From NCBI GenBank assembly GCA_951406725.2, contig OX597835.1:23312001-23376000 (forward strand): a stretch of DNA of 64,000 bases, in the 5' to 3' direction. Within the stretch, counting starts at the first letter, position 1. The number at the start of each line of letters is the position of its first letter. This document shows, in pieces, positions 1,211 through 40,525 of this stretch. The position numbers and the translations under genes were made by a program. The notes under the pieces are model-generated. The model worked only from the letters and a program-made list of their open reading frames with translations. It had not been told where the DNA came from and searched no databases. Source of the stretch: Octopus vulgaris (taxonomy: Eukaryota).

Positions 1211-1343
1211 CAAATCCTTTTGAGGATAGCTGAGGAAACGTAACATTTTCCGAAGCTGATGTCTGTGGGTAGGCAGCTGTTTATCTCCTAAACCTTCATC
1301 TGACACGGAATTTATGACACTTGTAATCATTTCTAGAAGATGC
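1211..1343 (-). CDS. CASP8: Caspase-8-like exon, small-subunit C-terminus (HLLEMITSVINSVSDEGLGDKQLPTHRHQLRKMLRFLSYPQKDL)
   Basis: ttttcag acceptor and gtatgt donor. The phase-2 entry matches the previous exon. KQLP...LRKMLRF matches the caspase C-terminal KQMP...LRKKL.F motif. Confidence 0.85.
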
Positions 1344-2973: not shown

Positions 2974-3121
2974 TTTTCTTCAGCATTAGTTGAAAATTCT
3001 TCAGTAATATGTTTGATAAATCTGCATCCATTCTGTGGACACCGATATGAAAAATAACCAGCTATGGTAGACATGAAGACAGAAACATCTGCTTTTAACA
3101 CAGGATTTTGATAATGTACAG
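2974..3121 (-). CDS. CASP8: Caspase-8-like exon, small subunit (PVHYQNPVLKADVSVFMSTIAGYFSYRCPQNGCRFIKHITEEFSTNAEE)
   Basis: ccttttag acceptor and gtaagt donor. Carries the AD...ST..GY.SYR....G..FI p10 motif. Phases 1 and 2 are consistent with the neighbouring exons. Not in the ORF track. Confidence 0.9.
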
Positions 3122-6681: not shown

Positions 6682-7008
6682 GGGGACCCATAGCATCAAT
6701 AGAACAATCTTTCTGATCATTTTCGTTTTGACATGCTTGGATAAAAAATAATTTCGGCTTATTTTCAAGAGACGGGCATTTGTCTGTATTAAAGAGCTCT
6801 ATCAAGTCATTAATCACCACAGGTTTAGAGTCGCTTCCAAATACTTCATCTTTTGCTCCATGTGATAGGATGAAGCAGGCAAAACAATCATACAGCTTGT
6901 GGTTTTCATCACTATATTTTTTTAAACATTCTTCCATTTTATTGCTGCTTAAATCTCGATGTATTTTTACAGTGAATTGAAATTTTTCAAATAATTTCTT
7001 AAGTTCAT
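6682..7008 (-). CDS. CASP8: Caspase-8-like exon, large subunit with catalytic His (ILSHG) and Cys (KPKLFFIQACQN)
   Basis: ttacag acceptor, gtaagt donor, 327 nt, phase 1-1. Motifs DCFACFILSHG and CPSLENKPKLFFIQACQ. Confidence 0.95.
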
Positions 7009-7628: not shown

Positions 7629-7809
7629 TAATGGCCATTATTGACCACACATTCTTAACGTATACGCCTCATGTATTTGCTGGTAGGCTGCAATTTGCTG
7701 GGGTGAAAATTACTCTCTCAAGGTGCCAGGTGTTGAAATACCTGAAAGTCATGGACAGGTGAGACAACTCACCTGAAATCCCATTCAGGAGTGGTGGACA
7801 TTGATGTTA

Positions 7810-9723
7810 CAGCATGAATTTGAACAGTGCATAGCAGCCAATCCTGACAGCAAGGTTTTCTGGAAATATGTGCATTCGAAGCAGAGACCTCACTCTCCAG
7901 TGGACCCTCTTCGCAACCCTCACACAAGCCAAATCCCTGACGATCCCAAGGAATGCGCAGAACTCATTGCCGAGTGCTATGCAAGCATATTCACTGTTGA
8001 AAATCAAAATGTACCATCTTCACCATCTCTAACAGCAAATTCCATAACAACTATGGAATTTACACCTGCAATGCTGCAACGTCACCTTCAAAATAAGCAC
8101 AACTATGCCTCCCTTGGTCTTGATGGCGTTACATACCTGCTTCTCAAACGTGGCAGGTACTTCCTTTTACACCAGCTTTCTATTTTTTTCCAGTACTGTC
8201 TCAACAATGGTACTACTCCGGAGCAGTGGAAAACCACCAGTGTCATTCCTCTGTTCAAAAAGGGCGACCGCACATCACCTGTCAACTATCGCCCAGTCAG
8301 TCTCACTAGGTGTATTGCAAAACTGATGGAATCGTGTGTCAGAGAAACACTTTGGAACTTCTGGAGCTCTCACAGTCTCATCTGACCCTCACAATATGGA
8401 TTTGTCCCAAACTCCAGCTGCACTGATCAGCTTGTCGAGTTCCTTGAGGACATTACTCAGATCACTGACAGTGGCTCATGGGTGGATGTTGTCTACCTTG
8501 ACTTTGCTAAGGCTTTTAATTCTGTGCCACACAAAAGGCTTATGGTGAAACTCTCTGCAATGGGTGTGAGGGATGATCTTTTTAACTGGTTGAAATCCTT
8601 CATTCTCAGCCGAAAGGAGGTAGTCACAGTTCTAGGACAGCATTCTACACCATATGAGATGTCATCGGGTGTACTACAGGGATCTGTTCTTGGTCCCCTC
8701 TTGTTTGTGACATACATTAATGACATAGATGCCAATTTAAAGAATGCCACGGTATTGAAATATGCAGACGACATCAAGCTGTACCTTGAAATCAAGAGGA
8801 CAGATCCTGATGTCTACAACTCTTTCCTGCAATCAGACTTGGACACAATGCAGCAATGGATCACAGACTGGCAACTGAAACTGGCTGTGGACAAGTGTAC
8901 CACCATGCATTTTGGGAGAAAAAACCCTGCATCCACATACTTCCTCCACAACACTGATATCAAGAAATCCTCTTGCGAGCCTGACCTAGGCATCACTGTC
9001 AGCAGTGATTTGCGTTGGACAAAGCATATCTCTAAAATTGCCAAGAAGGCCGAGGGTGTCTTGGCATCACTCAGCAAGACTTTTGTTAGCCGCTCTCCAG
9101 CCATCTATTTAAAGCTGTATACAGCTATGGTACGACCACACTTGGAATTCGCATCATCAGTTTGGAACCCCTATCTTGCTCAGAATATTGACCTCCTGGA
9201 ATCTGTTCAGAGACGTGCAACCAAATGCATACCCTCCATCAGACACCTACCGTACTCTGAGCGCCTTGTTTCCCTGGGCATGGATTCACTGAAGCTCCGG
9301 CGTCTGGTGATGGACTTGGTAAACACCCACAAAGTTATCAACCACCTCACCAACAACAACACTGAACACCTTTTTGATCTCCATGTGTCCAACACACGTG
9401 GACATGCCTACAAAGTCAGAAAACAGCACAACTCCCATGACTTTCGGAAACATTTTTCCACGCTCAGAGTTGCTAAAGCATGGAACAAACTGCCTGCGTC
9501 AGTTGTTGACTGCCATGACACTGCATCCTTTAAGGCCCTCATGCTTTCTGAAATCCGCCGAAACTACACCTGATTGTCCCCCTTCCATACTCATACACAT
9601 ATGTGTATGTCATGACCCATGCACTGTTCTTTTCCTGACGCTTGCACATTACCCTATGTACTATACATACATTTTAGATGAGTTGTAGTGCACCTGAGCA
9701 CTGTACACAATGTTTTATTATTT
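7810..9723 (+). mobile_element. 5'-truncated CR1/L2-type LINE, RT pseudogene (in-frame TGA at 8383-8385)
   Basis: NYRPVSL, YLDFAKAF, QGSVLGPLLF and YADD motifs, with a (TTA)-type tail. 3' fragments of the same family at about 4126-4465 and 62400-62672. Confidence 0.9.
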
Positions 9724-11771: not shown

Positions 11772-11843
11772 CTTCATCCACTTCAGCACCTTGTCTCCGT
11801 GACCCACCAACAAATTCAATGTTGTTTATTATGACACAATACC
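11772..11843 (-). CDS. CASP8: Caspase-8-like exon (GYCVIINNIEFVGGSRRQGAEVDE)
   Basis: ttccatag acceptor, gtaatt donor, 72 nt. Carries the classic GYC.IINN..F and R.G...D motifs. Confidence 0.92.
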
Positions 11844-12960: not shown

Positions 12961-13011
12961 CTCTTGGCACAGATTCCATTCTATAACAGTCAACACTCCT
13001 CCGTTTGGACT
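12961..13011 (-). CDS. CASP8: Caspase-8-like exon (xSKRRSVDCYRMESVPR)
   Basis: Pyrimidine-rich ttttaag acceptor, gtcagt donor, 51 nt. Y.M...PRG marks the start of the caspase domain. Confidence 0.88.
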
Positions 13012-14345: not shown

Positions 14346-15826
14346 GAAATTATTAACTATTAGTGATACAACTGAAAACTTCCCATATCAGTGGTGCCTG
14401 CAAAAGCTGCAGAGGATGTAGGGCCTCGAGCAAACAAAACAACACAGAGTGGACTTACGAAAGTTAAAAAATGTAATTTAAGACGATGGACAAATATAAA
14501 ATAAGAAAAGAGTAAAATATGGCCTTAGAGCCAAAAAGACAAGAATGGTAGGTAACGCTTAGAAGGAATCCTAAAGGATATAGGAAATAGCAAATAGCAA
14601 GAGAGAGAAATTTTTGCAACCAGATAGCTATGCAGCTGGTGTGAAAAAGGGAGAGAATGGAAGGAAAGCTGGCCACAGGTCATGTGGCAGCAGCAAGTAG
14701 AGGAGAAAGAGGACAAGAAAGAGGGAGAGAGAGAGAGAGAGAGAAAATAAAGGAAGGAATGAAGGTGGGGGAGGGAAAGGAGAAAGGCTACAAATACAAG
14801 TGAGAGGGCAACAGAGAGAAAAAAGGGTAAAGTGGACAGACTAGAAATAAGAGGGAAAGGGAGACAGAATGAAGGCAAAAGTAAATTCACACAGAATATA
14901 TGTATAGACTTACTGTTAATAAAAGTGGGATGTGCATTGTATACCGTTACTGAATAAATGACAAAATGCATCGTAAATAAACAACAGATAAAAAACGTAT
15001 ACTTATACTAAGGATATAACCAGATGGGAAACAGACACAGAAGGCCCCTAATTTTTCAACAGGTGTCAACCAAATGGTAATTCTCAGTTTTGCACCATTC
15101 GATGCCAGTGCCACCTTGACTGGCTTCTGTGCTGGTGGCACGTTAAAAGCACCAACCGATCGTGGCCACTGCCAGACTCCCCTGGCACCTGTGCCGGTGG
15201 CACGTAAAAAGCACCCACTACACTCGCAGAGTGGTTGGCGTCAGGAAGGGCATCCAGCTGTAGAAACACTGCCAGATCAGACTGGAGCCTGGTGCAGCCT
15301 CCTGGCTTCCCAGACTCCGGTCGAACCGTCCAACCTGTGCTAGCGCAGAAAACGGACGTTAAACGATGATGATGATGATGATATAATAGGTGTAGGTGTG
15401 AGTCTGTGGCTAAGAGGTTTCCTTCTGAACCGCATGGTTTGGGGTTCAGCACCGCGGCATGGCACTTTCGGCAAATGTCTTCTATTATAGCCTCAGGGCT
15501 TACCAAAGTGTTGTGAGAGAATTTGGTACACAGAAACAGTGAAATCCAGTCATGTGTATGGAGGAGGGCATGTGGATGGGGGGGGGGTCTCCAAACTTGG
15601 AAATAGGTGAGATGATGAGAGGAAAGGCATCTGGTTGTAGAAAATCTGCCTCAATAAACTTCAGCCAACTCATGCAAGCATGGAAAATTGCATGTTAAAA
15701 CGATGTTGATGATGTGTGTGAATGAACATATATATTATGCATACCACATGCATCATATACTTTATTAAAATACTTTATTTAGTTTAGAATTGTAAAAACA
15801 CGAAATACAAAATAAATATTTCTCAC

Positions 15827-15871
15827 TTTCAGAACTTAAAGATTGTTGTGACTCCGGTTGTATCTTGGTGC
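15827..15871 (-). CDS. Caspase linker micro-exon, 45 nt (xTKIQPESQQSLSSE)
   Basis: tctaatatgcag / gtgaga flanks, phase 1-1, open frame. Confidence 0.7.
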
Positions 15872-16827
15872 CTGCATATTAGAAGTATTCTATATTAGAC
15901 AACATCATAGAGATTACAATACCAAAAAATACAGAGATAAAAAAATATAAATGCAAATTAGAAAAAGAAAAAGAAAAGGAAAATAAAGAAAGTTTCTAGC
16001 AATGCAGAAAGTTCTACAAAAACCTTGATATTTCAGTTGCAAAGACCCATACTAAGAAGGAAGATGAAATGACAAAAATTGATGTAAGTACACGTTTCTT
16101 GGACTACTTCCTTCTGAAGGTAGGCCTTTGTGTATGAAATATAAAGGTTTTTCTAAAACTTGCTGCATCATTTGAAACTGTCTTTATTTTCCTTTTCTTT
16201 TTCTACTTCTGTACTACAATGCTTCAAGTGAACTACAACACTCTCATAAATGACAATGATTACTTGTTTTCAAGTGAGTACTTTATTGCAATGGACTCTG
16301 CATACTGAACTGTGCAACAGTATGAGATCCGTTGTTTATACGGTACATAAATAAGCATAACTGCTATGCATATGACATCAGTTTAAAGGCACAAAGAGAA
16401 ATGCTCATAGATAGATGTATGTATGTTCTCTTTTATTGTTTCAAGCCTTCCTGCAAGGCAGTAACTGGTTTCTAACAAAGATATGTGTGTGTGACCTTGT
16501 CATGATATTGCATGATTGTTGTTAAATGAATACCATTCATTCCCAATATTCTGCAAAAACATGTCTAACCACGTGGGAAAATTACCTTCCTTGGATTCAG
16601 GTAAGGGTTGATGACTAGAAGGACATCTGGTTGTAGAAAATCTGCCTCAGTAAACTTCATCCAATGAAAAATTGCATGTTAAAATGATGTTGATGACACT
16701 GATGATGTGTATGAATGAACTTAAAGATTCATATATTATACATTCTACATGCCTTATATATTTTATTAAAATATTTCATTTAGATTAGAAAAGTAAAAAC
16801 ATGAAATACAAAATAAATATTTCTCAC

Positions 16828-16872
16828 TTGAAGGTGTTGCAGATATTTGGGTCTCCAGTATTCCCATTCTGT
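16828..16872 (-). CDS. Caspase linker micro-exon, 45 nt (xRMGILETQISATPS), copy 3
   Basis: tctaatatacag / gtgaga flanks, phase 1-1. Identical to 19968-20012 and 20966-21010. Confidence 0.7.
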
Positions 16873-18140
16873 CTGTATATTAGAGGTATTCGTATTAGAC
16901 AGCATCATAGAGATTACAATACCAAAAAATACAGAGATAAAAAAATATAAATGCAAATTAGAAAAAGAAAAAGAAAAGGAAAATAAAGAAAGTTTCTAGC
17001 AATGCAGAAAGTTCTACAAAAACCTTGATATTTCAGTTGCAAAGACCCATACTAAGAAGGAAGATGAAATGACAAAAATTGATGTAAGTACACGTTTCTT
17101 GGACTACTTCCTTCTGAAGGTAGGCCTTTGTGTATGAAATATAAAGGTTTTTCTAAAACTTGCTGCATCATTTGAAACTGTCTTTATTTTCCTTTTCTTT
17201 TTCTACTTCTGTACTACAATGCTTCAAGTGAATTACAACACTCTCATAAATGAGAATGATTACGTGTTTTCAAGTGAGTACTTTATTCCAATAGACTAAG
17301 CATACTGAACTGCGCAACAGTATGAGATCCGTTGCTTATACGGTACATAAATAAGCATAACTGCTATGCATACGACATCAATTTAAAGGCACAAAGAGAA
17401 ACGCTCATAGATAGATGTATGTATGTTCTCTTTTATTGTTTCAAGCCTTCTTGCAAGGCAGTAACTGGTTTCTAACAAAGATATGTGTGTGTGTGTGTTT
17501 GTGTGTGTGTATCACCTCATTATGATATTGCATGATTGTTGCAAATGAATACAATTCATTCTCAATATTCTGCAAAAACATGTCTAATCACGGGGGAAAA
17601 TTACCTTGCTTGGAAACAGATATGGGTCGGTCACTAGAAGGGCATCTGGTTGTTGAAAATCTGATTCAATAAACTTCACCCAACCCATGCAAGCATGGAA
17701 AATAAAAGACACCTTTCAGTCGTGAATAATCATGAGATTGCACCTAGAAAGTTCCCCTCCAAGGCACGTGTCAGCGCAAGGTTGTTTATGGAAGACCAGC
17801 AGTCACCCATGCATAACAGACTCCCCTCTCCACAGCACTGGCCAATGTTATCCAAGGGAAAGGAAATGGCTGATACACCTTGGCACCAGTGACATTGCAA
17901 CTCATTTCTACAGCAGAGTAAACTGGAGCAACATGAAATAAAGTGTGTTGCTCAAGAGCAAAACACACAGCCCAGTCCAGGAATTGAACTTGCTACCTAT
18001 TGATTGTAAGTCCAATGCTCTAACCACTGAGCCAGGAATATTTATATATCATGCATACAACATGCATTATCTAATTTATTTTAAAATTTTATCAAGTTAG
18101 AAAAGAAAAAGCACAAAATTCAAAATAAATAGATTCTGAC

Positions 18141-18194
18141 CAATGCATGTGAGAATACTCAGAGATTCTTGGGAAGGCAGTATTGTTGCTTCAC
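18141..18194 (-). CDS. Caspase linker micro-exon, 54 nt (xEATILPSQESLSILTCI)
   Basis: tctaatatgcag / gtcaga flanks, phase 1-1, open frame. Confidence 0.62.
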
Positions 18195-18521
18195 CTGCAT
18201 ATTAGAGGTGTGTGTGTGCGTGTGTGTGTGTGTGTGTGGCCTTGTCATATTACATGATTGCTGTAAATGAATATCATTCATTTCCAATATTCTGCAAAGG
18301 CAAGTCTAACCATGGGGGAAAATTACCTTGCTTGGATGCAGGTAGGGGCTGATGACTAGAAGGGCATCTGGTTCGAGAAAATCAGCCTAAGTAAACTGGT
18401 GTGTGCGGGCGAACATAAAGATTCCTATATTATGCATACCACATGCATTATATACTTTATTAAAATATTTTATTTAGCTTAAAATTGTAAAAACACGAAA
18501 TACAAAATAAATATTCCTCAC

Positions 18522-18560
18522 TTTCAATTAGTGGTTGCGCCTTCACTGATACCTCTGGGC
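18522..18560 (-). CDS. Caspase linker micro-exon, 39 nt (xPEVSVKAQPLIE)
   Basis: tctaatatgcag / gtgagg flanks, phase 1-1, open frame. Confidence 0.68.
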
Positions 18561-18774
18561 CTGCATATTAGAAGTATTCTATATTAGACAACATCATAGA
18601 GATTACAATACCAAAAAATACAGAGATGAAAAAATATAAATGCAAATTAGAAAAAGAAAAAGAAAAGGAAAATAAAGAAAGCTTCTAACAATGCAGAAAG
18701 TTCTACAAAAACCTTTATATTTCAGTTGCAAAGACCCATACTAAGAAGGAAGATAAAATGACAAAAATTGATGT

Positions 18775-19214
18775 TGTAACAGGATCTGGAATCGGTATCA
18801 CTGAAGGGGTGTCGATCCGATCCCGTCACATACAATTTAGTTAGATATAACAGACGAATTCAGGTTATCGGTGAAAGACAGCAGTGTCGTTTATTATTCG
18901 TGATGGTGTACGTATATTATTCGTGATGGTGTACGTATCTCTGATGGGAAAACGACAGCCAAATCTGTTGTACAGCTTCTTGTTGGTTGGTTGAAGTGGT
19001 TCGATGTCGTCCGCGGCTGAGTCGGTGTGGTTATCAGAGACTACCAATGCACGTCTGTTTACGATGGCTGAAATGCCCAGAGAAGATGAATGAGTCTGTG
19101 TGCCTTAGGGGGTCAGTTTCCCGCACATGCGCATGGGGAAGACTTCCGGTGGCCACCCGGAAGTAGTCCCATTCTGCGCATGCGCGCTGAACCTTACACA
19201 GTAGCATCACTACA
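18775..19214 (-). mobile_element. Solo LTR (Gypsy-like), 440 bp
   Basis: TG...CA termini and a 4-bp TSD ATGT (18771-18774 / 19215-19218). Absent from the sister repeat units. AATAAA on the minus strand near 18890. Confidence 0.85.
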
Positions 19215-19967
19215 ATGTAAATACACATTTCTTGGACTACTTCCCTCTGAAGGCAGGCCTTTGAGCCTGAAATATAAAGGTTTTTCTAAAACTTGCTGCA
19301 TCGTTTGAAACTGTCTTTATTTTCCTTTTCTTTTTCTACTTCTGTACTACAATGCTTCAAGTGAACTACAACACTCTCATAAATGAGAATGATTACTTGT
19401 TTTCAAGTGAGTACTTTATCCCAATAGACTAAGCATACTGAACTGCGCAACAGTATGAGATCTGTTGTTTATACGGTACATAATTAAGCATAACTGCTAT
19501 GCATATGACATCAGTTTAAAGGCACAAAGAGAAACGCTCATACATAGATGTATGTATGTTCTCTTTTATTTTCAGTTGTTTCAAGCCTTCCTGCAAGGCA
19601 GTAACTGGTTTCTGACAAAGATATGTGTGTGTGACCTTGTCATGATATTGCATGATTGTTGTTAAATGAATACCATTCATTCCCAATATTCTGCAAAAAC
19701 ATGTCTAACCAAGTGGGAAAATTACCTTCCTTGGATTCAGGTAAGGGTTGATGGCTAGAAGGGCATCTGGTTGTAGAAAATCTGCCTCAGTAAACTTCAT
19801 CCAATGAAAAATTGCATGTTAAAATGATGTTGATGACACTGATGATGTGTATGAATGAACTTAAAGATTCATATATTATACATTCTACATGCCTTATATA
19901 TTTTATTAAAATATTTCATTTAGATTAGAAAAGTAAAAACATGAAATACAAAATAAATATTTCTCAC

Positions 19968-20012
19968 TTGAAGGTGTTGCAGATATTTGGGTCTCCAGTA
20001 TTCCCATTCTGT
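19968..20012 (-). CDS. Caspase linker micro-exon, 45 nt (xRMGILETQISATPS), copy 2
   Basis: Same sequence and flanks as 16828-16872. Confidence 0.68.
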
Positions 20013-20965
20013 CTGTATATTAGAGATATTCGTATTAGACAGCATCATAGAGATTACAATACCAAAAAATACAGAGATAAAAAATATAAATGCAAATTAG
20101 AAAAAGAAAAAGAAAAGGAAAATAAAGAAAGTTTCTAGCAATGCAGAAAGTTCTACAAAAACCTTGATATTTCAGTTGCAAAGACCCATACTAAGAAGGA
20201 AGATAAAATGACGAAATTGATGTAAATACACATTTCTTGGACTACTTCCTTCTGAAGGTAGGCCTTTGAGCCTGAAATATAAAGGTTTTTCTAAAACTTG
20301 CTGCATCATTTGAAACTGTCTTTATTTTCCTTTTCTTTTTCTACTTCTGTACTACAATGCTTCAAGTGAACTACAACACTCTCATAAATGACAATGATTA
20401 CTTGTTTTCAAGTGAGTACTTTATTGCAATGGACTCTGCATACTGAACTGTGCAACAGTATGAGATCCGTTGTTTATACGGTACATAAATAAGCATAACT
20501 GCTATGCATATGACATCAGTTTAAAGGCACAAAGAGAAATGCTCATAGATAGATGTATGTATGTTCTCTTTTATTGTTTCAAGCCTTCCTGCAAGGCAGT
20601 AACTGGTTTCTAACAAAGATATGTGTGTGTGACCTTGTCATGATATTGCATGATTGTTGTTAAATGAATACCATTCATTCCCAATATTCTGCAAAAACAT
20701 GTCTAACCACGTGGGAAAATTACCTTCCTTGGATTCAGGTAAGGGTTGATGACTAGAAGGACATCTGGTTGTAGAAAATCTGCCTCAGTAAACTTCATCC
20801 AATGAAAAATTGCATGTTAAAATGATGTTGATGACACTGATGATGTGTATGAATGAACTTAAAGATTCATATATTATACATTCTACATGCCTTATATATT
20901 TTATTAAAATATTTCATTTAGATTAGAAAAGTAAAAACATGAAATACAAAATAAATATTTCTCAC

Positions 20966-21010
20966 TTGAAGGTGTTGCAGATATTTGGGTCTCCAGTATT
21001 CCCATTCTGT
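20966..21010 (-). CDS. Caspase linker micro-exon, 45 nt (xRMGILETQISATPS), copy 1
   Basis: Same sequence and flanks as 16828-16872. Confidence 0.68.
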
Positions 21011-21344
21011 CTGTATATTAGAGGTATTCGTATTAGACAGCATCATAGAGATTACAATACCAAAAAATACAGAGATAAAAAATATAAATGCAAATTAGAA
21101 AAAGAAAAAGAAAAGGAAAATAAAAAAAGTTTCTAGCAATGCAGAAAGTTCTACAAAAACCTTGATATTTCAGTTGCAAAGACCCATACTAAGAAGGAAG
21201 ATAAAATGACGAAATTGATGTAAATACACATTTCTTGGACTACTTCCCTCTGAAGGCAGGCCTTTGAGCCTGAAATATAGAGGTTTTTCTAAAACTTGCT
21301 GCATTATTATGAACTTGAAATACAAAATAAATAAATTCTCACAT

Positions 21345-21756
21345 AGGCACAGGAGTGGCTGTGTGGTAAGTAGCTTGTCTACAAACCACATGGTTCCGGG
21401 TTCAGTCCCACTGCGTGACATCTTGGGTAAGTGTCTTCTGCTATAGCCCCGGGCCAACCAAGCCTTGTGAGTGGATTTGGTAGACGGAAACTGAAAGAAG
21501 GCTGTCGTGTATATGTATATATATGTATGTGTGTGTGTTTGTGTGTCTGTGTTTGTCCCCCTAGCATTGCTTGACAACCGATGCTGATGTGTTTACGTCC
21601 CCGTCACTTAGCGGTTCGGCAAAAGAGACTGATAGAATAAGTACTAGGCTTACAAAGAATAAGACCCGGGGTCGATTTGCTCGACTAAAGGCGGTGCTCC
21701 AGCATGGCCGCAGTCAAATGACTGAAACAAGTAAAAGAGTAAAGAGTAAAAAGAGT
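21345..21756 (+). mobile_element. Full-length SINE inserted at a micro-exon splice donor
   Basis: Complete head to tail, with AT duplicated at 21343-44 and 21757-58. Confidence 0.85.
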
Positions 21757-21792
21757 ATGTAATACTCGAAAAGTGCAGTATTGGTGCTTCCC
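21757..21792 (-). pseudogene. Micro-exon (36 nt, xEAPILHFSSIT) separated from its gtgaga donor by a SINE
   Basis: ttaatatgcag acceptor. Homologous to the 18141-18194 exon. The original donor now sits at 21341-21342. Confidence 0.6.
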
Positions 21793-22163
21793 CTGCATAT
21801 TAAAGGTATGTGTCTTCTTGTCATGAAATAACATGATTGTTGTAAGAGAATATAATTCATTTCCAATATTCTGCAAAAATATGTCTAGCCATGGGGAAAA
21901 ATTACCTTACTTGGGAACAGATAAGGATTGATGACAGGAAGAGCATCTGCCTCAATAAACTTCAGCCTCAATAAAATTTGCTTCAATAAACTTCAGCCAA
22001 CCCATGCAAGCATGGAAAATTGCATGTTAAAGCGATGTTGATGATGTGTGTGAATGAACATAAAGATTCATATATTATGCATACCACAGGCATTATATAT
22101 TTTATCAAAATATTTTATTTAGCTTAGAAAAGTAAAAACATGAAATACAAAATAGATTCTCAC

Positions 22164-22208
22164 ATTCACGGCATGAAGATTCTTTGGAAGGCGAGCATCT
22201 TCTTGGGC
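22164..22208 (-). CDS. Caspase linker micro-exon, 45 nt (xPRRCSPSKESSCRE)
   Basis: tctaatatgcag / gtgaga flanks, phase 1-1, open frame. Confidence 0.7.
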
Positions 22209-22331
22209 CTGCATATTAGAGAAATTCTATATTAGACAACATCATAGCGATCACAATACCAAAAAATACAGAGATAAAAAAATATAAATGCAAATTAGAA
22301 AAAGAAAAAGAAAAGGAAAATAAAGAAATAT

Positions 22332-22499
22332 AGGCGCAGGAGTGGCTGTGTGGCAAGTAGCTCGCTAACCAACCACATGGTTCCGGGTTCAGTCCCACTG
22401 TGTGGCACCTTGGGCAAGTATCTTCTACTATAGCCTCGGGCCGACCAAAGCCTTGTGAGTGGATTTGGTAGACGGAAACTGAAAGAAGCCCGTTGTGTG

Positions 22500-22545
<46 letters not shown>

Positions 22546-22767
22546 TGTGTGTGTTCGTGTGTCTGTGTTTGTCCCCCTAGCATTGCTTGACAACCGATGC
22601 TGGTGTGTTTATGTCCCCGTTACTTAACGGTTCGGCAAAAGAGACCGATAGAATAAGTACTGGGCTTACAAAAGAATAAGTCCTGGGGTCGAGTTGCTCG
22701 ATTAAAGGCGGTGCTCCAGCATGGCCGCAGTCAAATGACTGAAACAAGTAAAAGAGAGTAAAAGAGA
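22332..22767 (+). mobile_element. Full-length, young-looking tRNA-derived SINE
   Basis: Complete head, core and tail. Confidence 0.85.
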
Positions 22768-22984
22768 ATGTATCAGTGTGGGTGATAACCCTATGAACAC
22801 CTGCTGTAAGGGGTGTCCATCATTACCACACCTGTGCAAAAGAGTGTAGATCCCTCACAGGATTAAAAGGTTACATCTGTACTGCTTATGTATCAGAGAA
22901 CAATCAAGAGATGGCGTCGATTAATCAGTTGCAGCGATCAGGTATGTATATATTTGAGAGCAATTAAAGTAGTGAGTACAGCTT

Positions 22985-23210
22985 TAACCTTTTAGTATTT
23001 AAACCGGCCATATCCGGCCAAAATAGCTAATCTGTTTTATGTTCAAACTGACCAGATCCAAGCTCTCACACCTACCCTACAATGTTATTCTACATTAAGT
23101 AATTACACCATCAAGATCTTGAAGATATGAGATAATGCATGATTAATTCAAATCAATGGGAATCAATAAGCATTATGTTTGATAGAATAATCTGAACACT
23201 AAAGGGTTAA
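22985..23210. mobile_element. TTAA-flanked MITE (aaccctttag...ctaaagggtt family)
   Basis: Short TIRs with TTAA at both ends. Relatives at 28299-28526, 28979-29195 and 29217-29445. Confidence 0.65.
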
Positions 23211-23783
23211 GGGTAGTGAGTACTGTTTACACTTACAGTGTACAAGGGAACTCTTTCTGTGCTGATGCTATGGCAAAAGCTCCCCCAACCCACCCTTTAC
23301 AGTAATTGGTAAACATGCAGAGAAGTAGGATTGAAAGGTTCCTTAAGTCCTGTCCAACCAAGGACTTGACAACCTCTCTAACGCTTGTACCATGTAAAAA
23401 TGTTTTTTTAACCCTTTCAATACCAACCCAGCTGCAACTGCCTCTGGCTCTCTAGTACAAATGTCTTGTTTTCATAAGTTTTGAATTAAAATCTTGTACC
23501 AAACCTAAGTCACAGTTTATGTTTCTAACACTTGCTTATTGATAACTTAGTTATTCTACTAAATTCTTTGTTATATTTAAAATTAATTGAAAGAAATTAA
23601 GTTAAACTAATATTCACATGCTATTATCTATAGCTTTATTTGATCCAAGGTAAACCATTCCAAAACAAAAAAAGAAAAAATAAGAGTTATTTCATGCTCC
23701 CTCGAAATTTCTAAATTCTTCTTTCCAATAACTGAAACATATGGAAGATAGATAACATATCAAAGCATAAAACAATTCCTCAC

Positions 23784-23846
23784 CTTCTCTCCCACAACTT
23801 TCTGGAATGGGCCCTCTTCTCTGTTCAACTGGAGGGCGACAGTATT
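23784..23846 (-). CDS. Caspase linker exon, 63 nt (EYCRPPVEQRRGPIPESCGRE)
   Basis: ttccttttatatag acceptor and gtgagg donor, phase 1-1. Continues the frame of the DED2 exon. Confidence 0.78.
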
Positions 23847-24159
23847 CTATATAAAAGGAAAACAATTTTAAAGTAACATTTATTGATTGAAAAGATTTTG
23901 TGTAACAAAAACACCTGATTCTTGTATTTTATATTTTCATCTTTTATTTTAACATCACATAACATAGTTAGAATCTTGTTTTTATATTTTCTTTATTTAA
24001 TGTTCATTTTACATGCTGACATGGACTGGAGAGTTTGACAGGAACTGGCAAGGACAGGGGTTACACCAGGTCTCATTGTCTGTTCTGGCATGGTCGCTAC
24101 GTCTGGATGCCCTTCCTAATGCCAACCACTTTACAGAGTGTACCGGATGCTTCTTACAT

Positions 24160-24540
24160 GGCACCAGCACCAGTGCTTTTTATGTGACACCAGCACCAAT
24201 GCTTTTTACATGGTACCAGTACCAGTGCTTTTACTGTGACACCAGCACCAGTGCTTTTACTGTGACACCAGCACCAGTGCTTTTTATGTGACACCAGCAC
24301 CAATGCCTTTTACATGGTACAAGCACCAGTGCTTTTACTGTGACACCAGCACCAGTGCTTTTACTGTGACACCAGCACCAGTGCTTTTTATGTGACACCA
24401 GCACCAATGCCTTTTACATGGTACCAGCACCAGTGCTTTTACTGTGACACCAGCACCAGTGCTTTTAACATGGTACCAGCACAAGTGCTTTTTATGCGAC
24501 ACCAGCACTAGTACCCATGCTTTTTACATGCTACCAGCAC
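24160..24540. repeat. Minisatellite (accagcaccagtgctttta...) within an RTE 3' fragment
   Basis: About 26-28-bp unit repeated more than 12 times. Confidence 0.85.
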
Positions 24541-26808: not shown

Positions 26809-27023
26809 CTTCTAATTTACTTGCTAAATCTTTTCTGTTAATTGAAGACAAAGTATTCACAAGAGAGCCAAAAGACCTTTCATTTATAACATCAGCATCC
26901 AGTAAGATAGTAAAGATTGACAAAGCATCAATATTATTTTCTTTTATGTGACTCCGGTAAAAAAACCTCAGTTTTTTAACATCCTCTGATCTCAGATCCA
27001 ATGCCAAATCAAAGAGTAACGAT
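26809..27023 (-). CDS. CASP8: Caspase-8-like exon, DED2 (RSLLFDLALDLRSEDVKKLRFF...INRKDLASKLE)
   Basis: tttcag acceptor and gtaagc donor. RxDL motif. The phase-2 join gives NPFR|SLLF. Confidence 0.92.
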
Positions 27024-29829: not shown

Positions 29830-30134
29830 CTAAAAGGATTTAATTCATTTGGTTCAAAATCATCAATGTTAGACGAACCAGAATTCAATTTTTTCAATAA
29901 ATCAATCCTATGCATTTTCTTGAGACATTTTGATAAAAATTTGTTGTCATTTGAAGTGATAATATGGTAGTTTGAAAGTGCATCGATTATATTTAAGCCA
30001 TTATGCTTTTCTATTTCTCCTGCTGGTAAGGTATCATGGCACAGGAACTTCAAATAACTTACATCCTTCTCTCGAAGGTTTTCAGCTATTTTGACTAAAG
30101 CAGAACTTAGATTGTGGTCAACATCCATCATCAT
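29830..30134 (-). CDS. CASP8: Caspase-8-like first coding exon, DED1 (MMMDVDHNLSSALVKIAENL...LKFLC...MHRIDLLKKL...NPF)
   Basis: ttaccag acceptor at 30140-41, ATG at 30134, gtaagt donor. FL and RxDL DED motifs. A tandem DED plus caspase domain is the caspase-8/10 architecture. Confidence 0.92.
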
Positions 30135-30179
30135 GGTATCTGGTAAAGAGAAATAAAAATAAGAATATATATCTATATA

Positions 30180-36899: not shown

Positions 36900-39800
36900 A
36901 CTCTAGAATATCTGTATTTCTTTCCTCTACCTAATTACGTTACTCAGTGACGATAACGAATGTCCACTGCTAACACCAGCTCCTGCCCACGGCGTGGTCA
37001 GGTTGGAAGAGAGATCAAAAGAAAAATACCACGATAACTATCACCACCACAACAACCCTCCTCTTCTCAGGCGCCGAATCCCCCCCGTCCCCCCACATCT
37101 CCTTCCCAGTTTTCAGAGTTGGCACTATCAATGTTGGTACATTGACAGGCAAGTCTAGTGAGATTGTAGAGATGCTAGAGAGAAGACAGGTTGATGTATG
37201 CTGCATACAAGAGGTAAGATGGAGAGATGCTTCGGCTAGGGTCCTCACGGGCAAGGCACTTAGGTACAAACTCTACTGGCAAGGTAACGCGGAAGGTGTA
37301 GGGGGTGTAGGCATTCTCCTTGCGGAGGAATGGGTGGATAAGGTCATAGAGGTTGTCAGGGTTTGTGATAGAGTGCTTAAGCTCAGGTTGGTCCTACAGA
37401 GTGGCACAGCTATGATTATCTCAGCCTATGCCCCACAAGCGGGACTACCAAATGATCAGAAGGACAACTTTTATGATACCCTTCTGCAGGCTACTTCAAA
37501 GACTAGTAACAAGGACCTCATCTTTGTAGGTGGATATTTTAATGGGCATGTTGGGCGGGAATCGGGTATCTTCACTGGGGTACATGGTGGCTATGGTATT
37601 GGCACCAGAAATGATGAGGGAACTAGACTGCTGGAATTCTGTGATGCATGTAACCTTTCAATCTGCAACACTAACTTCAAGAAGCCAGTCTGCCACCTTA
37701 TAACTTATCAGTCAGGAGACTCCGCTAGCCAAATAGACTTCATCCTCACCAGACAACGGGATGCAGGGTTGCTCTTGAATACAAAGACCCTCCCGGGTGA
37801 AGAATGTATCCCTCAGCATAGACTAATCATCAGTGACTTTAAGCTTGAGGCCAGAAGGACTCCAAGAAACAAACCAATCCAGAAAAGAAGGATTTGGAGG
37901 CTAAAGAACCCTTCGCATGGTCAGAAATTTAGGGACATACTCATCAAGAAATTTGATGAGAGGGAGGAGGAGCTTCAGACGTCAGACATAGAAGGTAGCT
38001 GGGAATTCCTACGGGACAGCTTGTTGAGTGCCACAGACCAAGTCTGTGGATGGTGCAAAGTCCCTTCCAGACCTAGAATTACGTGGTGGTGGAATAGTGC
38101 AGAAGATAAAGCCATCTGTGAAAAGAGACGGGCCTGGAAAGCCTGGAAGGATGGGGGCAGCAGGGAACTGTACCAGATAGCCAAAAGGGAGGCTGGGCGG
38201 CAGGTATACATTGCCAAAGATGTAGCAGAAAAGAAGAAGTTTGCCAGTGTCCAGCGTCGCGAGGATCAAAGAGCTGAAGTATTTCGGATTGCCAGACAGT
38301 GTGTCAGAGAAAATAGCGATGTTATAGGAGAGAAATGTGTCCGCATGGATGATGGGGCACTTGCTTTTACTACTAGTGAAAAGAAAGAGGCTTGGAGAAG
38401 CCATTATGAAAGACTGCTGAATGAGGAGAATGAATGGGAGGAGGAGAGCCTGCCAAATATTGACCCAGTAGAGGGACCAGCTACCCGAATAGACAGCTCC
38501 CTTGTAGATAAGGCAATTAAGGATATGAAACCAGGCAAAGCCCCTGGCCTATCAGGAATCACTGCTGAGATGCTTAAAACAGCTGGCTATGTGGGCTATG
38601 CCATAGTCACCCGCATTGTAAACCAGGTAGTTCACAATGGAGTCATACCCAATGACTGGTGCAGCAGCACCATAGTCAACTGCTACAAGGGTAAGGGTGA
38701 TGCTCTAGATAGAAATAACTACAGAGGTATCAAACTGTTGGACCAGGTGATGAAGGTCTCAGAGAAGGTCATAACCAATCTCATTAGGGAGAGAATTTGT
38801 TTAGATGAAATGCAGTTCGGTTTTGTACCAGGTAGAAGCACCACTGATGCTATATTCCTGGTCCGATAACTGCAGGAGAAGTACCTAGCTAAAGATAAAC
38901 CCCTCTACATAGCTTTTGTAGACTTGGAGAAAGCCTTTGACAGGGTTCCCCGTTCCCTTATCTGGTGGTCGATGCGGAAACTGGAGATTGAAGAATGGCT
39001 AATAAGGGCTGTACAGGCTCTATACAGAGAGGCTGTCAGCAAGGTTAGGATTGGCAACGAATATAGTGAAGAATCCGGGTAGAAGTAGGTGTGCACCAGG
39101 GCTCAGCCCTCAGTCCCCTTTTATTCATCATAGTCCTTCAGGCAATAACAGAGGAATTCAAAACGGGATGCCCCTGGGAGCTCCTCTATGCCGATGACCT
39201 AGCTCTCATAGCAGAATCACTACCGGAACTAGAAGAGAAATTTCGGGTGTGGAAGCAAGGGTTGGAATCAAAGGGCCTTAGAATAAATGTAGCAAAGACC
39301 AAAGTATTAGTAAGCAGCAAGAGGTACTCAGCACACATCCCCTCGGGTAGGTGGCCCTGCTCAACCTGTAGGAAAGGTACAGGTAGAAACTCCATAAGAT
39401 GCACCCAATGTAAGTTATGGACACATAAGAGGTGCAGCAACATTAAAGGGAAATTAACAGATAAGATAGCTTTCATGTGCGGCAGATGCACAGGGACAAT
39501 AGACACAACAGACACTCAGAAAACAGATTCCATCACACTCCAGGGAGAGAAACTAGAAGTAGTTGATAGTTTCCGCTACCTGGGTGACCAAGTTAGTAGC
39601 GGAGGTGGATGCACAGAGAGTATCACCACTAGAATACGAATAGCCTGGGCAAAGTTCAGAAAGCTCCTACCCCTACTGGCAACAAAAGGTCTCTCCCTCA
39701 GAGCAAAAGGTAGATTGTATGATGCATGTGTGCGAACTGCCATGCTTCACGGTAATGAAACTTGGGCTGTGACTGCAGAAGACATGCGTAGACTTGAAAG

Positions 39801-40525
39801 AAATGAAGCTAGCATGATCCGCTGGATGTGTAGTGTCAGTGTGCACGCAAGACAGAGTGTAAGCATCCTGAGAGAAATGCTGGATATAAGAAGCATCAGA
39901 TGTGGTGTGCAAGAGCGACGCTTGCGATGGTATGGTCATGTGCTGCGGATGGATGAAGAGAGATGTGTGAAGAAGTGCCACTCCCAAACAGTTGAAGGTA
40001 TCAGGGGGAGAGGTAGACCCAGGAAGACATGGGATGAGGTGGTCAAGCATGACCTCAGAGCATTGGGCCTCACTGAGGCAATGGCGAAGGACCGAGATCT
40101 CTGGAGATATGCTGTGACTACAAAGACCCGGGCTGCTTTCTGCAGCAATTCCACATACCCCCTACCCATTCTAAGTACCCCGGATCCCCAAAGTACCCTG
40201 GATCCCCAAAGTACCCCGATCCCCAAAGTACCCCGATCCCCAAAGTACCCCGGACCTCGTTGCCCCCGTGCCGCTGACACGTTAAAATGCTCGAACCGAT
40301 CGTGACCGATGTCGGACCCTCCGGCCCCTGTGCAGGTGGCACGTAAAAAGCACCCAATCCACTCACAGAGTGGTTGGCGTTAGGAAGGGCATCCAGCCGT
40401 AGAAACTCTGCCAGATTCAGACTGGAGCCTGGAGCGGCCCCTGGCTTCCCAGACCCGGTCGAACCGTCCAACCCGTGCTAGCGCGGAAAGCAGACGTTAA
40501 ACGATGATGATGATGATGATGATGA
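36900..40525 (+). mobile_element. Near full-length RTE-clade LINE (APE endonuclease, RT, PHD-like finger), inactivated
   Basis: RVGTINV, CIQEVRW, SAYAPQ, IDFIL and QHRL (APE). NYRGIKL, DLEKAFD, QGSALSP and YADD (RT). TAA at 38867-69 and a frameshift near 39075. (GAT)n tail. The 5' boundary is uncertain. Confidence 0.92.

What the first reader, a model, noticed from the sequence alone, without database searches (positions are those of the whole stretch)
15827..23846. Array of nine phase-1 symmetric micro-exons building the caspase-8 prodomain linker
Seen: between DED2 and the caspase domain lie exon-like units of 63, 45, 36 (disrupted), 45, 45, 39, 54, 45 and 45 nt. All lengths are multiples of 3, all are phase 1-1 and all are stop-free in the caspase frame. 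Eight share the flanks (c/t)taatat(g/a)cag / gt(g/c)ag and sit in ~1-kb tandem duplications. The acceptors lack a real pyrimidine tract and instead carry a CTAAT-like motif (two in most units), which suggests regulated inclusion. Inference: a combinatorial or mutually exclusive cassette system that tunes linker length and sequence of an initiator caspase. None of this is visible in the ORF track.
Basis: partly seen in the sequence, partly recalled or inferred. Interest (0 to 1): 0.85.

Follow-up and report, generated by a model that had tools for sequence, protein, structure and literature searches.

The report
Duplicated linker exons in octopus caspase-8
An octopus cell-death gene has built the floppy tether between its two working parts from tandem copies of one short exon; the copies are really spliced in, several appear optional, and their protein sequences drifted apart much faster than the DNA around them, hinting at past selection on a region usually seen as a passive spacer.

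Summary
The array is real. All nine units sit at the stated places, in phase 1-1, and a tenth exon (36 nt, 14949-14914) was missed. Contigs from 4 of 4 runs laid splice 63->45(B), 39(D)->45(F) and F->13011. Octopus sinensis RefSeq already lists 12 isoforms of this caspase-8. There the 63-nt and B exons are constant, and the second C copy, D, F and the new exon are optional. Splicing is therefore additive, not mutually exclusive, and regulation is untested. The 54-nt and the SINE-broken 36-nt units appear in 0 of 13 models and look like pseudo-exons. Two features are not in the finding. First, paralogous exons B, C, D and F are 49-64% identical inside flanks 85-99% identical, with omega about 3-6 (p 0.003-0.04, tiny sample), yet differ little between the two species. 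Second, a co-duplicated transposon hairpin precedes five units and could loop exons out. The linker is predicted disordered. Verdict: a new variant of tandem symmetric-exon duplication, largely annotated already, with a suggestive signal of past adaptive divergence.

The parts
29830..30139 (-). DED1 exon (310 nt)
   Evidence: Pfam DED E 1.5e-16; AG/GT ends and open frame
26809..27023 (-). DED2 exon (215 nt, ends in phase 1)
   Evidence: Pfam DED E 5e-13; held by 19 of 24 listed runs
23784..23846 (-). Linker exon A (63 nt), constant; flanks not alignable to the duplicated unit
   Evidence: 13 of 13 models; A->B joint in 4 of 4 runs; flank identity 0.45-0.63 to the other units
22164..22208 (-). 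Linker exon B (45 nt), constant, member of the duplicated family
   Evidence: 13 of 13 models; joint in 4 of 4 runs
21342..21792 (-). Pseudo-exon X (36 nt, 21792-21757) cut off from its donor (GT at 21342) by a SINE
   Evidence: 0 of 13 models
20966..21010 (-). Linker exon C1 (45 nt)
   Evidence: C peptide in 13 of 13 models, twice in 7 of 13; the copies are identical, so which is used cannot be told
19968..20012 (-). Linker exon C2 (45 nt), identical to C1
18522..18560 (-). Linker exon D (39 nt), optional
   Evidence: 9 of 13 models; D->F joint in 4 of 4 runs
18141..18194 (-). Unit E (54 nt), probable pseudo-exon; lacks the -27 YTAAY and the distal U-rich tract; donor GTCAG
   Evidence: 0 of 13 models; joined across by D->F in 4 of 4 runs
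16828..16872 (-). Unit C3 (45 nt), very recent third copy of C; use not shown
   Evidence: 700 nt from the exon start identical to C1, upstream identical to that of F; no D->C order in 13 models; joined across in 4 of 4 runs
15827..15871 (-). Linker exon F (45 nt), usually included, optional
   Evidence: 10 of 13 models; D->F and F->13011 joints in 4 of 4 runs
14914..14949 (-).
   Evidence: 5 of 13 models; located; joined across by F->13011 in 4 of 4 runs
12961..13011 (-). Constant exon (51 nt) carrying the only Asp between DED2 and the catalytic domain (RSVD-C), a candidate release site
   Evidence: the cleavage role is inferred from known caspase specificity
15960..16210 (.). Foldback element (MITE-like, about 250 nt, 104-nt arms) upstream of F. 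Copies at 16960-17210 (before C3), 18649-19343 (before D, split by an insertion), 20099-20348 (before C2) and 21097-21345 (before C1, truncated); only a stub before B
   Evidence: inverted repeats; dispersed family, 313 candidates, 40 scored, matches on many contigs; -119.8 kcal/mol, z -12
11772..11843 (-). Caspase domain exon (72 nt)
6682..7008 (-). p20 exon (327 nt, phase 1-1) with SHG and QACQN; skipped in 2 of 12 O. sinensis models
   Evidence: Pfam Peptidase_C14 E 9e-28
2974..3121 (-). p10 exon (148 nt)
1211..1343 (-). p10 exon (133 nt) with the KQLP..RKML C-terminal motif

Best explanation
This is a two-DED initiator caspase gene whose disordered DED2-to-catalytic linker grew by repeated tandem duplication of one phase 1-1 exon together with its intron flanks. 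SHOWN: the units B, C, D, F, E and X share descent; A, B, D and F are spliced in RNA-derived contigs; the linker is predicted disordered. SUPPORTED BY ANNOTATION ONLY: a constant core (A, B, at least one C, at least one of D or F) plus optional cassettes (second C, D, F, G) gives linkers of about 66-108 aa; the commonest path seen is ...D-F-constant exon. INFERRED: after duplication the used copies went through a burst of amino-acid divergence faster than their synonymous sites and introns, and have since been nearly static. Unequal exchange keeps homogenising the introns and made the identical C copies. E and X died. SPECULATIVE: arms of the co-duplicated hairpin pair across units and loop out C or D. 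The likely effect is to change tether length and its surface for partners or modification, adjusting how easily the catalytic domains dimerise on a DED filament, without adding caspase cut sites.
For: Joints A->B, D->F and F->13011 in 4 of 4 runs from 4 studies. Twelve RefSeq isoforms with additive patterns. Flanks 85-99% vs exons 49-64%, Fisher p 6e-7 to 2e-9 in 6 of 6 pairs. Identity by codon position 29/45/72% vs 24/27/36% after codon shuffling. pN 0.60 vs pS 0.30; 0 of 600 neutral simulations reach the gap. MG94 fits give omega 3.4-6.4 with F1x4 or intron frequencies, LRT p 0.0007-0.043 in 9 of 9 fits. Internal control: the collinear B..X and D..E introns are 84% identical and the silent X/E pair about 83%, but B/D exons 49%. 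pLDDT below 50 over residues 187-290. 0 Asp vs 10 Glu in the 85 residues encoded inside A-G.
Against: The skipping evidence is from automatic gene models. The joints shown reveal one path only; 411 further joints were not displayed and contigs drop rare variants. The selection test rests on 14 codons x 4 sequences, a star tree and a hand-placed gap in D, and it was post hoc; F3x4 fits gave unstable omega (23-148). Between the window and O. sinensis the linker differs at 2 of 106 residues, the rest at 21 of 391, so there is no ongoing rapid change. Linkers of other DED caspases run from 6 to 440 aa, and 8 of 97 have internal repeats, so length may be loosely constrained. F and G have no hairpin arm downstream yet are skipped in models. 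No other cephalopod orthologue was found to date the events.
Confidence: 0.65

Rival explanations
1. An essentially constitutive repeat expansion of a tolerant spacer. Minor isoforms are splicing noise, allelic copy-number variants or artefacts of model building. Exons look divergent only because gene conversion keeps resetting the introns while old exons drift under relaxed constraint.
For: The same D-F-13011 path dominates 4 of 4 runs. Upstream flanks are clearly homogenised: C3 vs F is 100% identical over 300 nt. The ten full models are an exact product of local options. Linker length is very variable across animals.
Against: Old relaxed exons should have third positions as diverged as first and second; observed identity is 72% vs 29% and 45%. 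The silent X/E pair diverged only like its intron. Models of two species skip F.
Confidence: 0.22
2. A diversified bait or tripwire region: the cassettes present different cut sites or docking motifs for proteases and effectors of microbes, and splicing, steered by competing hairpin pairings, lets cells display different sets.
For: Excess amino-acid change in a disordered stretch. No Asp in the cassettes. Cross-unit arm pairings (-102 to -117 kcal/mol) are as strong as local ones, and the truncated local pair before C1 is weaker (-71).
Against: Near-identity between the two Octopus species argues against a running arms race. No cleavage, binding or expression data exist. Local hairpins with a 43-nt loop should form first. 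Freeing a caspase-8 catalytic domain from its DEDs does not by itself activate it (general knowledge, recalled).
Confidence: 0.1
3. A Dscam-like mutually exclusive cassette cluster.
For: Tandem paralogous exons with complementary intronic arms, the set-up that PMC6071210 links to mutual exclusion.
Against: Models include up to five optional or paralogous units together. D and F are joined in 4 of 4 runs. All introns exceed 300 nt.
Confidence: 0.03

Closest known systems
O. sinensis RefSeq gene LOC115223204, caspase-8 isoforms X1-X12 (XP_029649523.1, XP_036368016-027), and O. vulgaris model CAI9738935.1
   Same: Same gene; exons A, B, C, D, F and G appear letter for letter except 2 residues.
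   Different: Automatic models only. They do not show paralogy, the dead units, the third C copy, the hairpin or the divergence pattern. The O. vulgaris model is probably not independent of the window (equal contig length).
Human caspase-8 isoforms A and B
   Same: Splice variants include a 15-residue difference just after the DEDs, and inactive forms lacking the catalytic site exist (PMC11853578, passages read).
   Different: One optional stretch rather than an array of paralogous exons. The human region carries Asp processing sites; the octopus cassettes carry none.
Schistosome micro-exon genes (MEGs, VAL-6)
   Same: Small symmetric exons, variant pool by alternative splicing, accelerated evolution (PMC4350168, title and passages).
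   Different: MEGs are secreted and made mostly of micro-exons. Here about a fifth of an intracellular protease is affected, with exons of 36-63 nt.
Oyster sperm bindin
   Same: A mollusc gene with tandem repeats diversified by positive selection, intronic recombination and splicing that sets repeat number (PMC5712786, passages).
   Different: Bindin repeats are folded lectin domains with high polymorphism within the species; these are disordered 13-15-residue pieces, nearly fixed between species.
Competing RNA structures made by duplicating an exon with an intronic stem-loop (PMC6071210, abstract)
   Same: A stem-loop was duplicated with the exon, creating cross-unit complementarity.
   Different: Both arms were duplicated, the arm is a transposon, and splicing is additive. 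Any role in splicing is untested.
Titin PEVK, CD44 and CD45 variable exons (recalled, no call)
   Same: Symmetric short exons tuning the length of a disordered or extended segment.
   Different: Structural or surface proteins with demonstrated regulation; not shown here.

Membership tests
Caspase-8/10-type DED initiator caspase | Two tandem N-terminal DEDs | tested here: met
   Pfam PF01335 on both exons; the only DED pair among 3 matches in the genome
Caspase-8/10-type DED initiator caspase | Caspase domain with catalytic His-Gly and QACxG Cys | tested here: met
   PF00656; SHG and QAC present, pentapeptide is QACQN rather than QACQG; best PDB sequence hit is caspase-8
Caspase-8/10-type DED initiator caspase | Orthology by phylogeny to vertebrate caspase-8 rather than -10 or cFLIP | not tested
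   no tree built
Tandem duplication of symmetric exons | Homologous exons and flanks in tandem, same phase at both ends | tested here: met
   for B, C, D, F, E, X; A and G not shown homologous
Tandem duplication of symmetric exons | Copies present in spliced transcripts | tested here: met
   B, D and F joints in 4 of 4 runs; C from models only; E, X and C3 not shown
Combinatorial cassette array | Several inclusion patterns within one individual | tested here: inconclusive
   12 pooled automatic models; contigs show one path
Combinatorial cassette array | Inclusion regulated by tissue or stimulus | not testable with these tools
   only contigs were offered, no raw reads or tissue labels
Mutually exclusive exon cluster (Dscam type) | One and only one exon of the cluster per mRNA | tested here: not met
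Mutually exclusive exon cluster (Dscam type) | Competing docking/selector pairings | tested here: inconclusive
   cross-unit complementarity exists, but it follows from duplicating a foldback transposon; no covariation data
Schistosome-type micro-exon gene | Most of the coding region in very small symmetric exons | tested here: not met
   106 of about 530 codons
Schistosome-type micro-exon gene | Signal peptide, secreted product | tested here: not met
   the N-terminus is a DED helix bundle; no signal-peptide predictor was run

The most novel reading that the evidence does not exclude
Octopus caspase-8 carries an adaptively diversified, splice-selectable sensor strip in its prodomain linker. 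A transposon hairpin captured in the duplicated unit supplies competing pairings that drop individual cassettes. Each cassette offers a different motif for microbial proteases, effectors or host modifiers while avoiding Asp. Skipping straight from B to the constant exon (stop codon) or skipping the p20 exon gives FLIP-like inhibitors from the same gene. One invertebrate gene would thus generate tunable sensors and its own brakes by splicing.
Probability: 0.1. Interest if true: 0.85.

Novelty: new variant of a known kind. Interest (0 to 1): 0.5.

Why it matters
The linker of initiator caspases is normally treated as a passive tether. Here it was built from duplicated exons whose amino acids changed about three times as fast as their silent sites and about six times as fast as the intron of the same duplication (dN 1.18, dS 0.38, intron 0.18). 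If that holds with more species, it shows selection on a disordered spacer in the only two-DED caspase found in this genome. The natural isoform series (66-108 aa) makes the effect of tether length on caspase-8 activation directly testable. The locus is also a compact example of exon birth, death (SINE insertion, signal decay) and intron homogenisation. If it does not hold, it is an ordinary annotated exon expansion.

Tried and rejected
No RNA holder listed on record: one search gave only contigs with RNA as a guess; I laid 4 of the 24 runs (X1, X3, X7, X19) and treat GT-AG joints as the sign of RNA. Depth over C2, C3, E and G could not be used (repeats, multi-mapping). Three protein searches and one full scan found no cephalopod orthologue beyond the two Octopus species, so the array could not be dated. 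I considered a phase-0 reading, because the position pattern mimics purifying selection in that frame; rejected, since D, F, G and E have stops there and both flanking exons fix phase 1. The idea that A is the ancestor of the 45-nt units (internal CAG at +18) was not supported: flanks 0.45-0.63, exon similarity significant only to B and E. The acceptor is not a dispersed repeat. Use of the AG at -20 in B, D or F would give a stop; no evidence it is used. The first species comparison had wrong exon ends (redone). IQ-TREE fits with fixed omega failed, replaced by my own likelihood code. No further coding exon was found in the 10 kb left of the window. Literature: ten searches found no paper on this array; the library lacks most subscription journals. 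The primary MEG paper and the 2014 caspase-8 evolution paper were not held. No supplements were read.
Full report
Gene. The window's - strand holds a two-DED caspase: DED exons 30139-29830 and 27023-26809 and a Peptidase_C14 exon 7008-6682 (Pfam). A 14-exon model has AG/GT at every end and no stop, and aligns without gaps to O. sinensis caspase-8 X1 over 497 residues. DED1 is 100% identical to an O. vulgaris model (P0001). That record's contig length equals the window's contig, so I do not count it as independent genomic evidence. A genome search with the DED profile gave 3 matches: these two and one elsewhere.

Observation. I name them A63, B45, X36, C1, C2, D39, E54, C3 and F45. A tenth exon, G36 (14949-14914), was missed. 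X36 is separated from its donor by a SINE. C1, C2 and C3 are identical over 45 of 45 bases. The shared acceptor pattern occurs 6 times in the genome, all in this array, and the 291-nt unit matches 7 places, all here. The acceptors have 50-55% pyrimidine in the last 20 nt and YTAAY at about -90, -27 and -11; E and X keep only the -11 copy. The -27 copy is at an ordinary branch-point distance (general knowledge). A U-rich tract further upstream belongs partly to a foldback arm.

Are they exons? In O. sinensis RefSeq the gene has 12 isoforms. With P0001 that makes 13 models: A, B and at least one C in 13; two C in 7; D in 9; F in 10; G in 5; E and X in 0. Every model has D or F; none has D before C. 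I laid 4 of 24 listed runs, from 4 studies, all contigs, RNA by guess. Each shows A->B and F->13011 with GT-AG ends, and D->F at the same contig depth as F->13011. The D->F joint is reported 3 nt inside F, which fits a differing base at the start of F, where the two species differ (inference). So A, B, D and F are real exons, and the main path passes over E, C3 and G. 411 further joints were not displayed, so minor paths were not seen. Alternative inclusion therefore rests on automatic models. The ten full-length ones are an exact product of local options and may be enumerated; 1 vs 2 C may be allelic. Mutual exclusion is ruled out. B shares the odd acceptor and is constant, so the acceptor does not itself imply regulation. 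Joining B directly to 13011 creates TAG, one limit on free combination.

Origin. B, C, D, F, E and X descend from one unit. A and G have unrelated flanks. The B..X and D..E introns are collinear at 84%. Upstream flanks are homogenised (C3 vs F 100% from -50 to -350), and the 700 nt from the start of C3 equal those of C1. C3 is thus a very recent copy; polymorphism or an assembly effect is not excluded.

Divergence. Among B, C, D and F the 100-nt flanks are 85-99% identical but the exons 49-64% (6 of 6 pairs, Fisher p at most 6e-7), and the peptides share 1-3 of 12-14 residues. Identity by codon position is 29, 45 and 72%, against 24, 27 and 36% after shuffling codons. pN is 0.60 and pS 0.30; 0 of 600 neutral simulations reach that gap, while omega 3 fits. 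Likelihood fits give omega 3.4-6.4 with F1x4 or intron frequencies, and p 0.0007-0.043 across 9 of 9 settings, the F3x4 estimates being unstable. The silent X/E pair is about 83% identical, like its intron. Against this: the data are 14 codons in 4 sequences on a star tree, the gap in D was placed by best fit, the test was post hoc, and the flanks are partly reset by conversion. The linker differs between the window and O. sinensis at only 2 of 106 residues against 21 of 391 elsewhere, so any burst lies in the past. No other cephalopod orthologue was found.

Protein. The AlphaFold model has pLDDT below 50 over residues 187-290, the linker. It is rich in S, P, E and R, with 0 Asp and 10 Glu in the 85 residues coded inside A-G (nominal p about 0.008, post hoc). 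The only Asp is in the constant exon (RSVD-C), a plausible release site by known caspase specificity. Among 126 DED caspases with both domains located (13 of them these Octopus models), linkers run from 6 to 440 aa; 8 of the 97 non-Octopus ones of 40 aa or more have internal repeats. Length change is therefore common in this family.

Hairpin. A 250-nt foldback precedes C2, D, C3 and F, is truncated before C1 and is reduced to a stub before B. It is a dispersed element and folds at -119.8 kcal/mol, z -12. Arms of different units pair as well as local arms (-102 to -117), and the local pair before C1 is weaker (-71). Cross-pairing could loop out C copies, D and E, but not A, B, F or G. That fits constant A and B and variable C and D, but not variable F and G. 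I give it about 0.25.

Comparison. Papers seen: PMC11853578, PMC11463336, PMC4350168, PMC4199593 and PMC5712786 as passages; PMC6071210 as abstract; others as listings only. Human caspase-8 has splice forms differing by 15 residues after the DEDs. Schistosome MEGs and oyster bindin combine symmetric or tandem exons, splicing and fast evolution, but differ in product and extent. The O. vulgaris haemocyte transcriptome paper lists three caspase-8 transcripts without structure. Ten searches found nothing on this array; two relevant papers were not held and no supplements were read. Earlier scan notes show similar arrays in other genomes (unchecked).

Verdict. Real and expressed (about 0.97). Some alternative inclusion (about 0.8). 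Past positive selection on the duplicated exons (about 0.6). Regulated inclusion unknown (about 0.3). A new variant of a known kind, mostly annotated already; interest 0.5.

Noticed in passing
G000 C5:54.1-54.5 Mb, C26:33.70-33.81 Mb, C28:6.29-6.38 Mb, C19:7.04-7.13 Mb (L002-L010): Most of the 64 caspase-domain matches in the genome lie in tandem clusters with open frames of about 290-370 aa, suggesting large arrays of intron-poor caspase genes; a few have stops.
   Followed up: no
window 6682-7008: The p20 exon is symmetric (327 nt) and skipped in O. sinensis isoforms X11 and X12, removing both catalytic residues: a possible FLIP-like inhibitor from the same gene. The catalytic pentapeptide is QACQN, not QACQG.
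   Followed up: partly
window 1211-1343: All O. sinensis models stop at SVSDEG, while the window frame continues through the conserved KQLP..RKML motif; the O. sinensis record may carry an indel or error. The O. vulgaris model P0001 lacks p10 altogether.
   Followed up: partly
window 29830-30139, 11772-11843, 6682-7008: Differences from O. sinensis cluster in DED1 (7 of 102), the 72-nt exon (4 of 24) and p20 (8 of 109), while DED2 has 0 of 72; high for close species and worth a dN/dS test.
   Followed up: no
window 24148-24512: Intronic minisatellite, 26-nt unit x 14 with 52/104-nt higher-order period.
   Followed up: no
window 18775-19210: An insertion of about 440 nt splits the foldback element upstream of exon D; related contigs at about 94% identity occur in run X19.
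   Followed up: no
window 7777-9573 and 36974-40305: LINE-type reverse transcriptase frames on the + strand, one inside the caspase gene's intron (family label from my reading of the translation, not from a profile search).
   Followed up: no
G000 C26:2421515-2421751: The only other DED match in the genome, possibly FADD.
   Followed up: no
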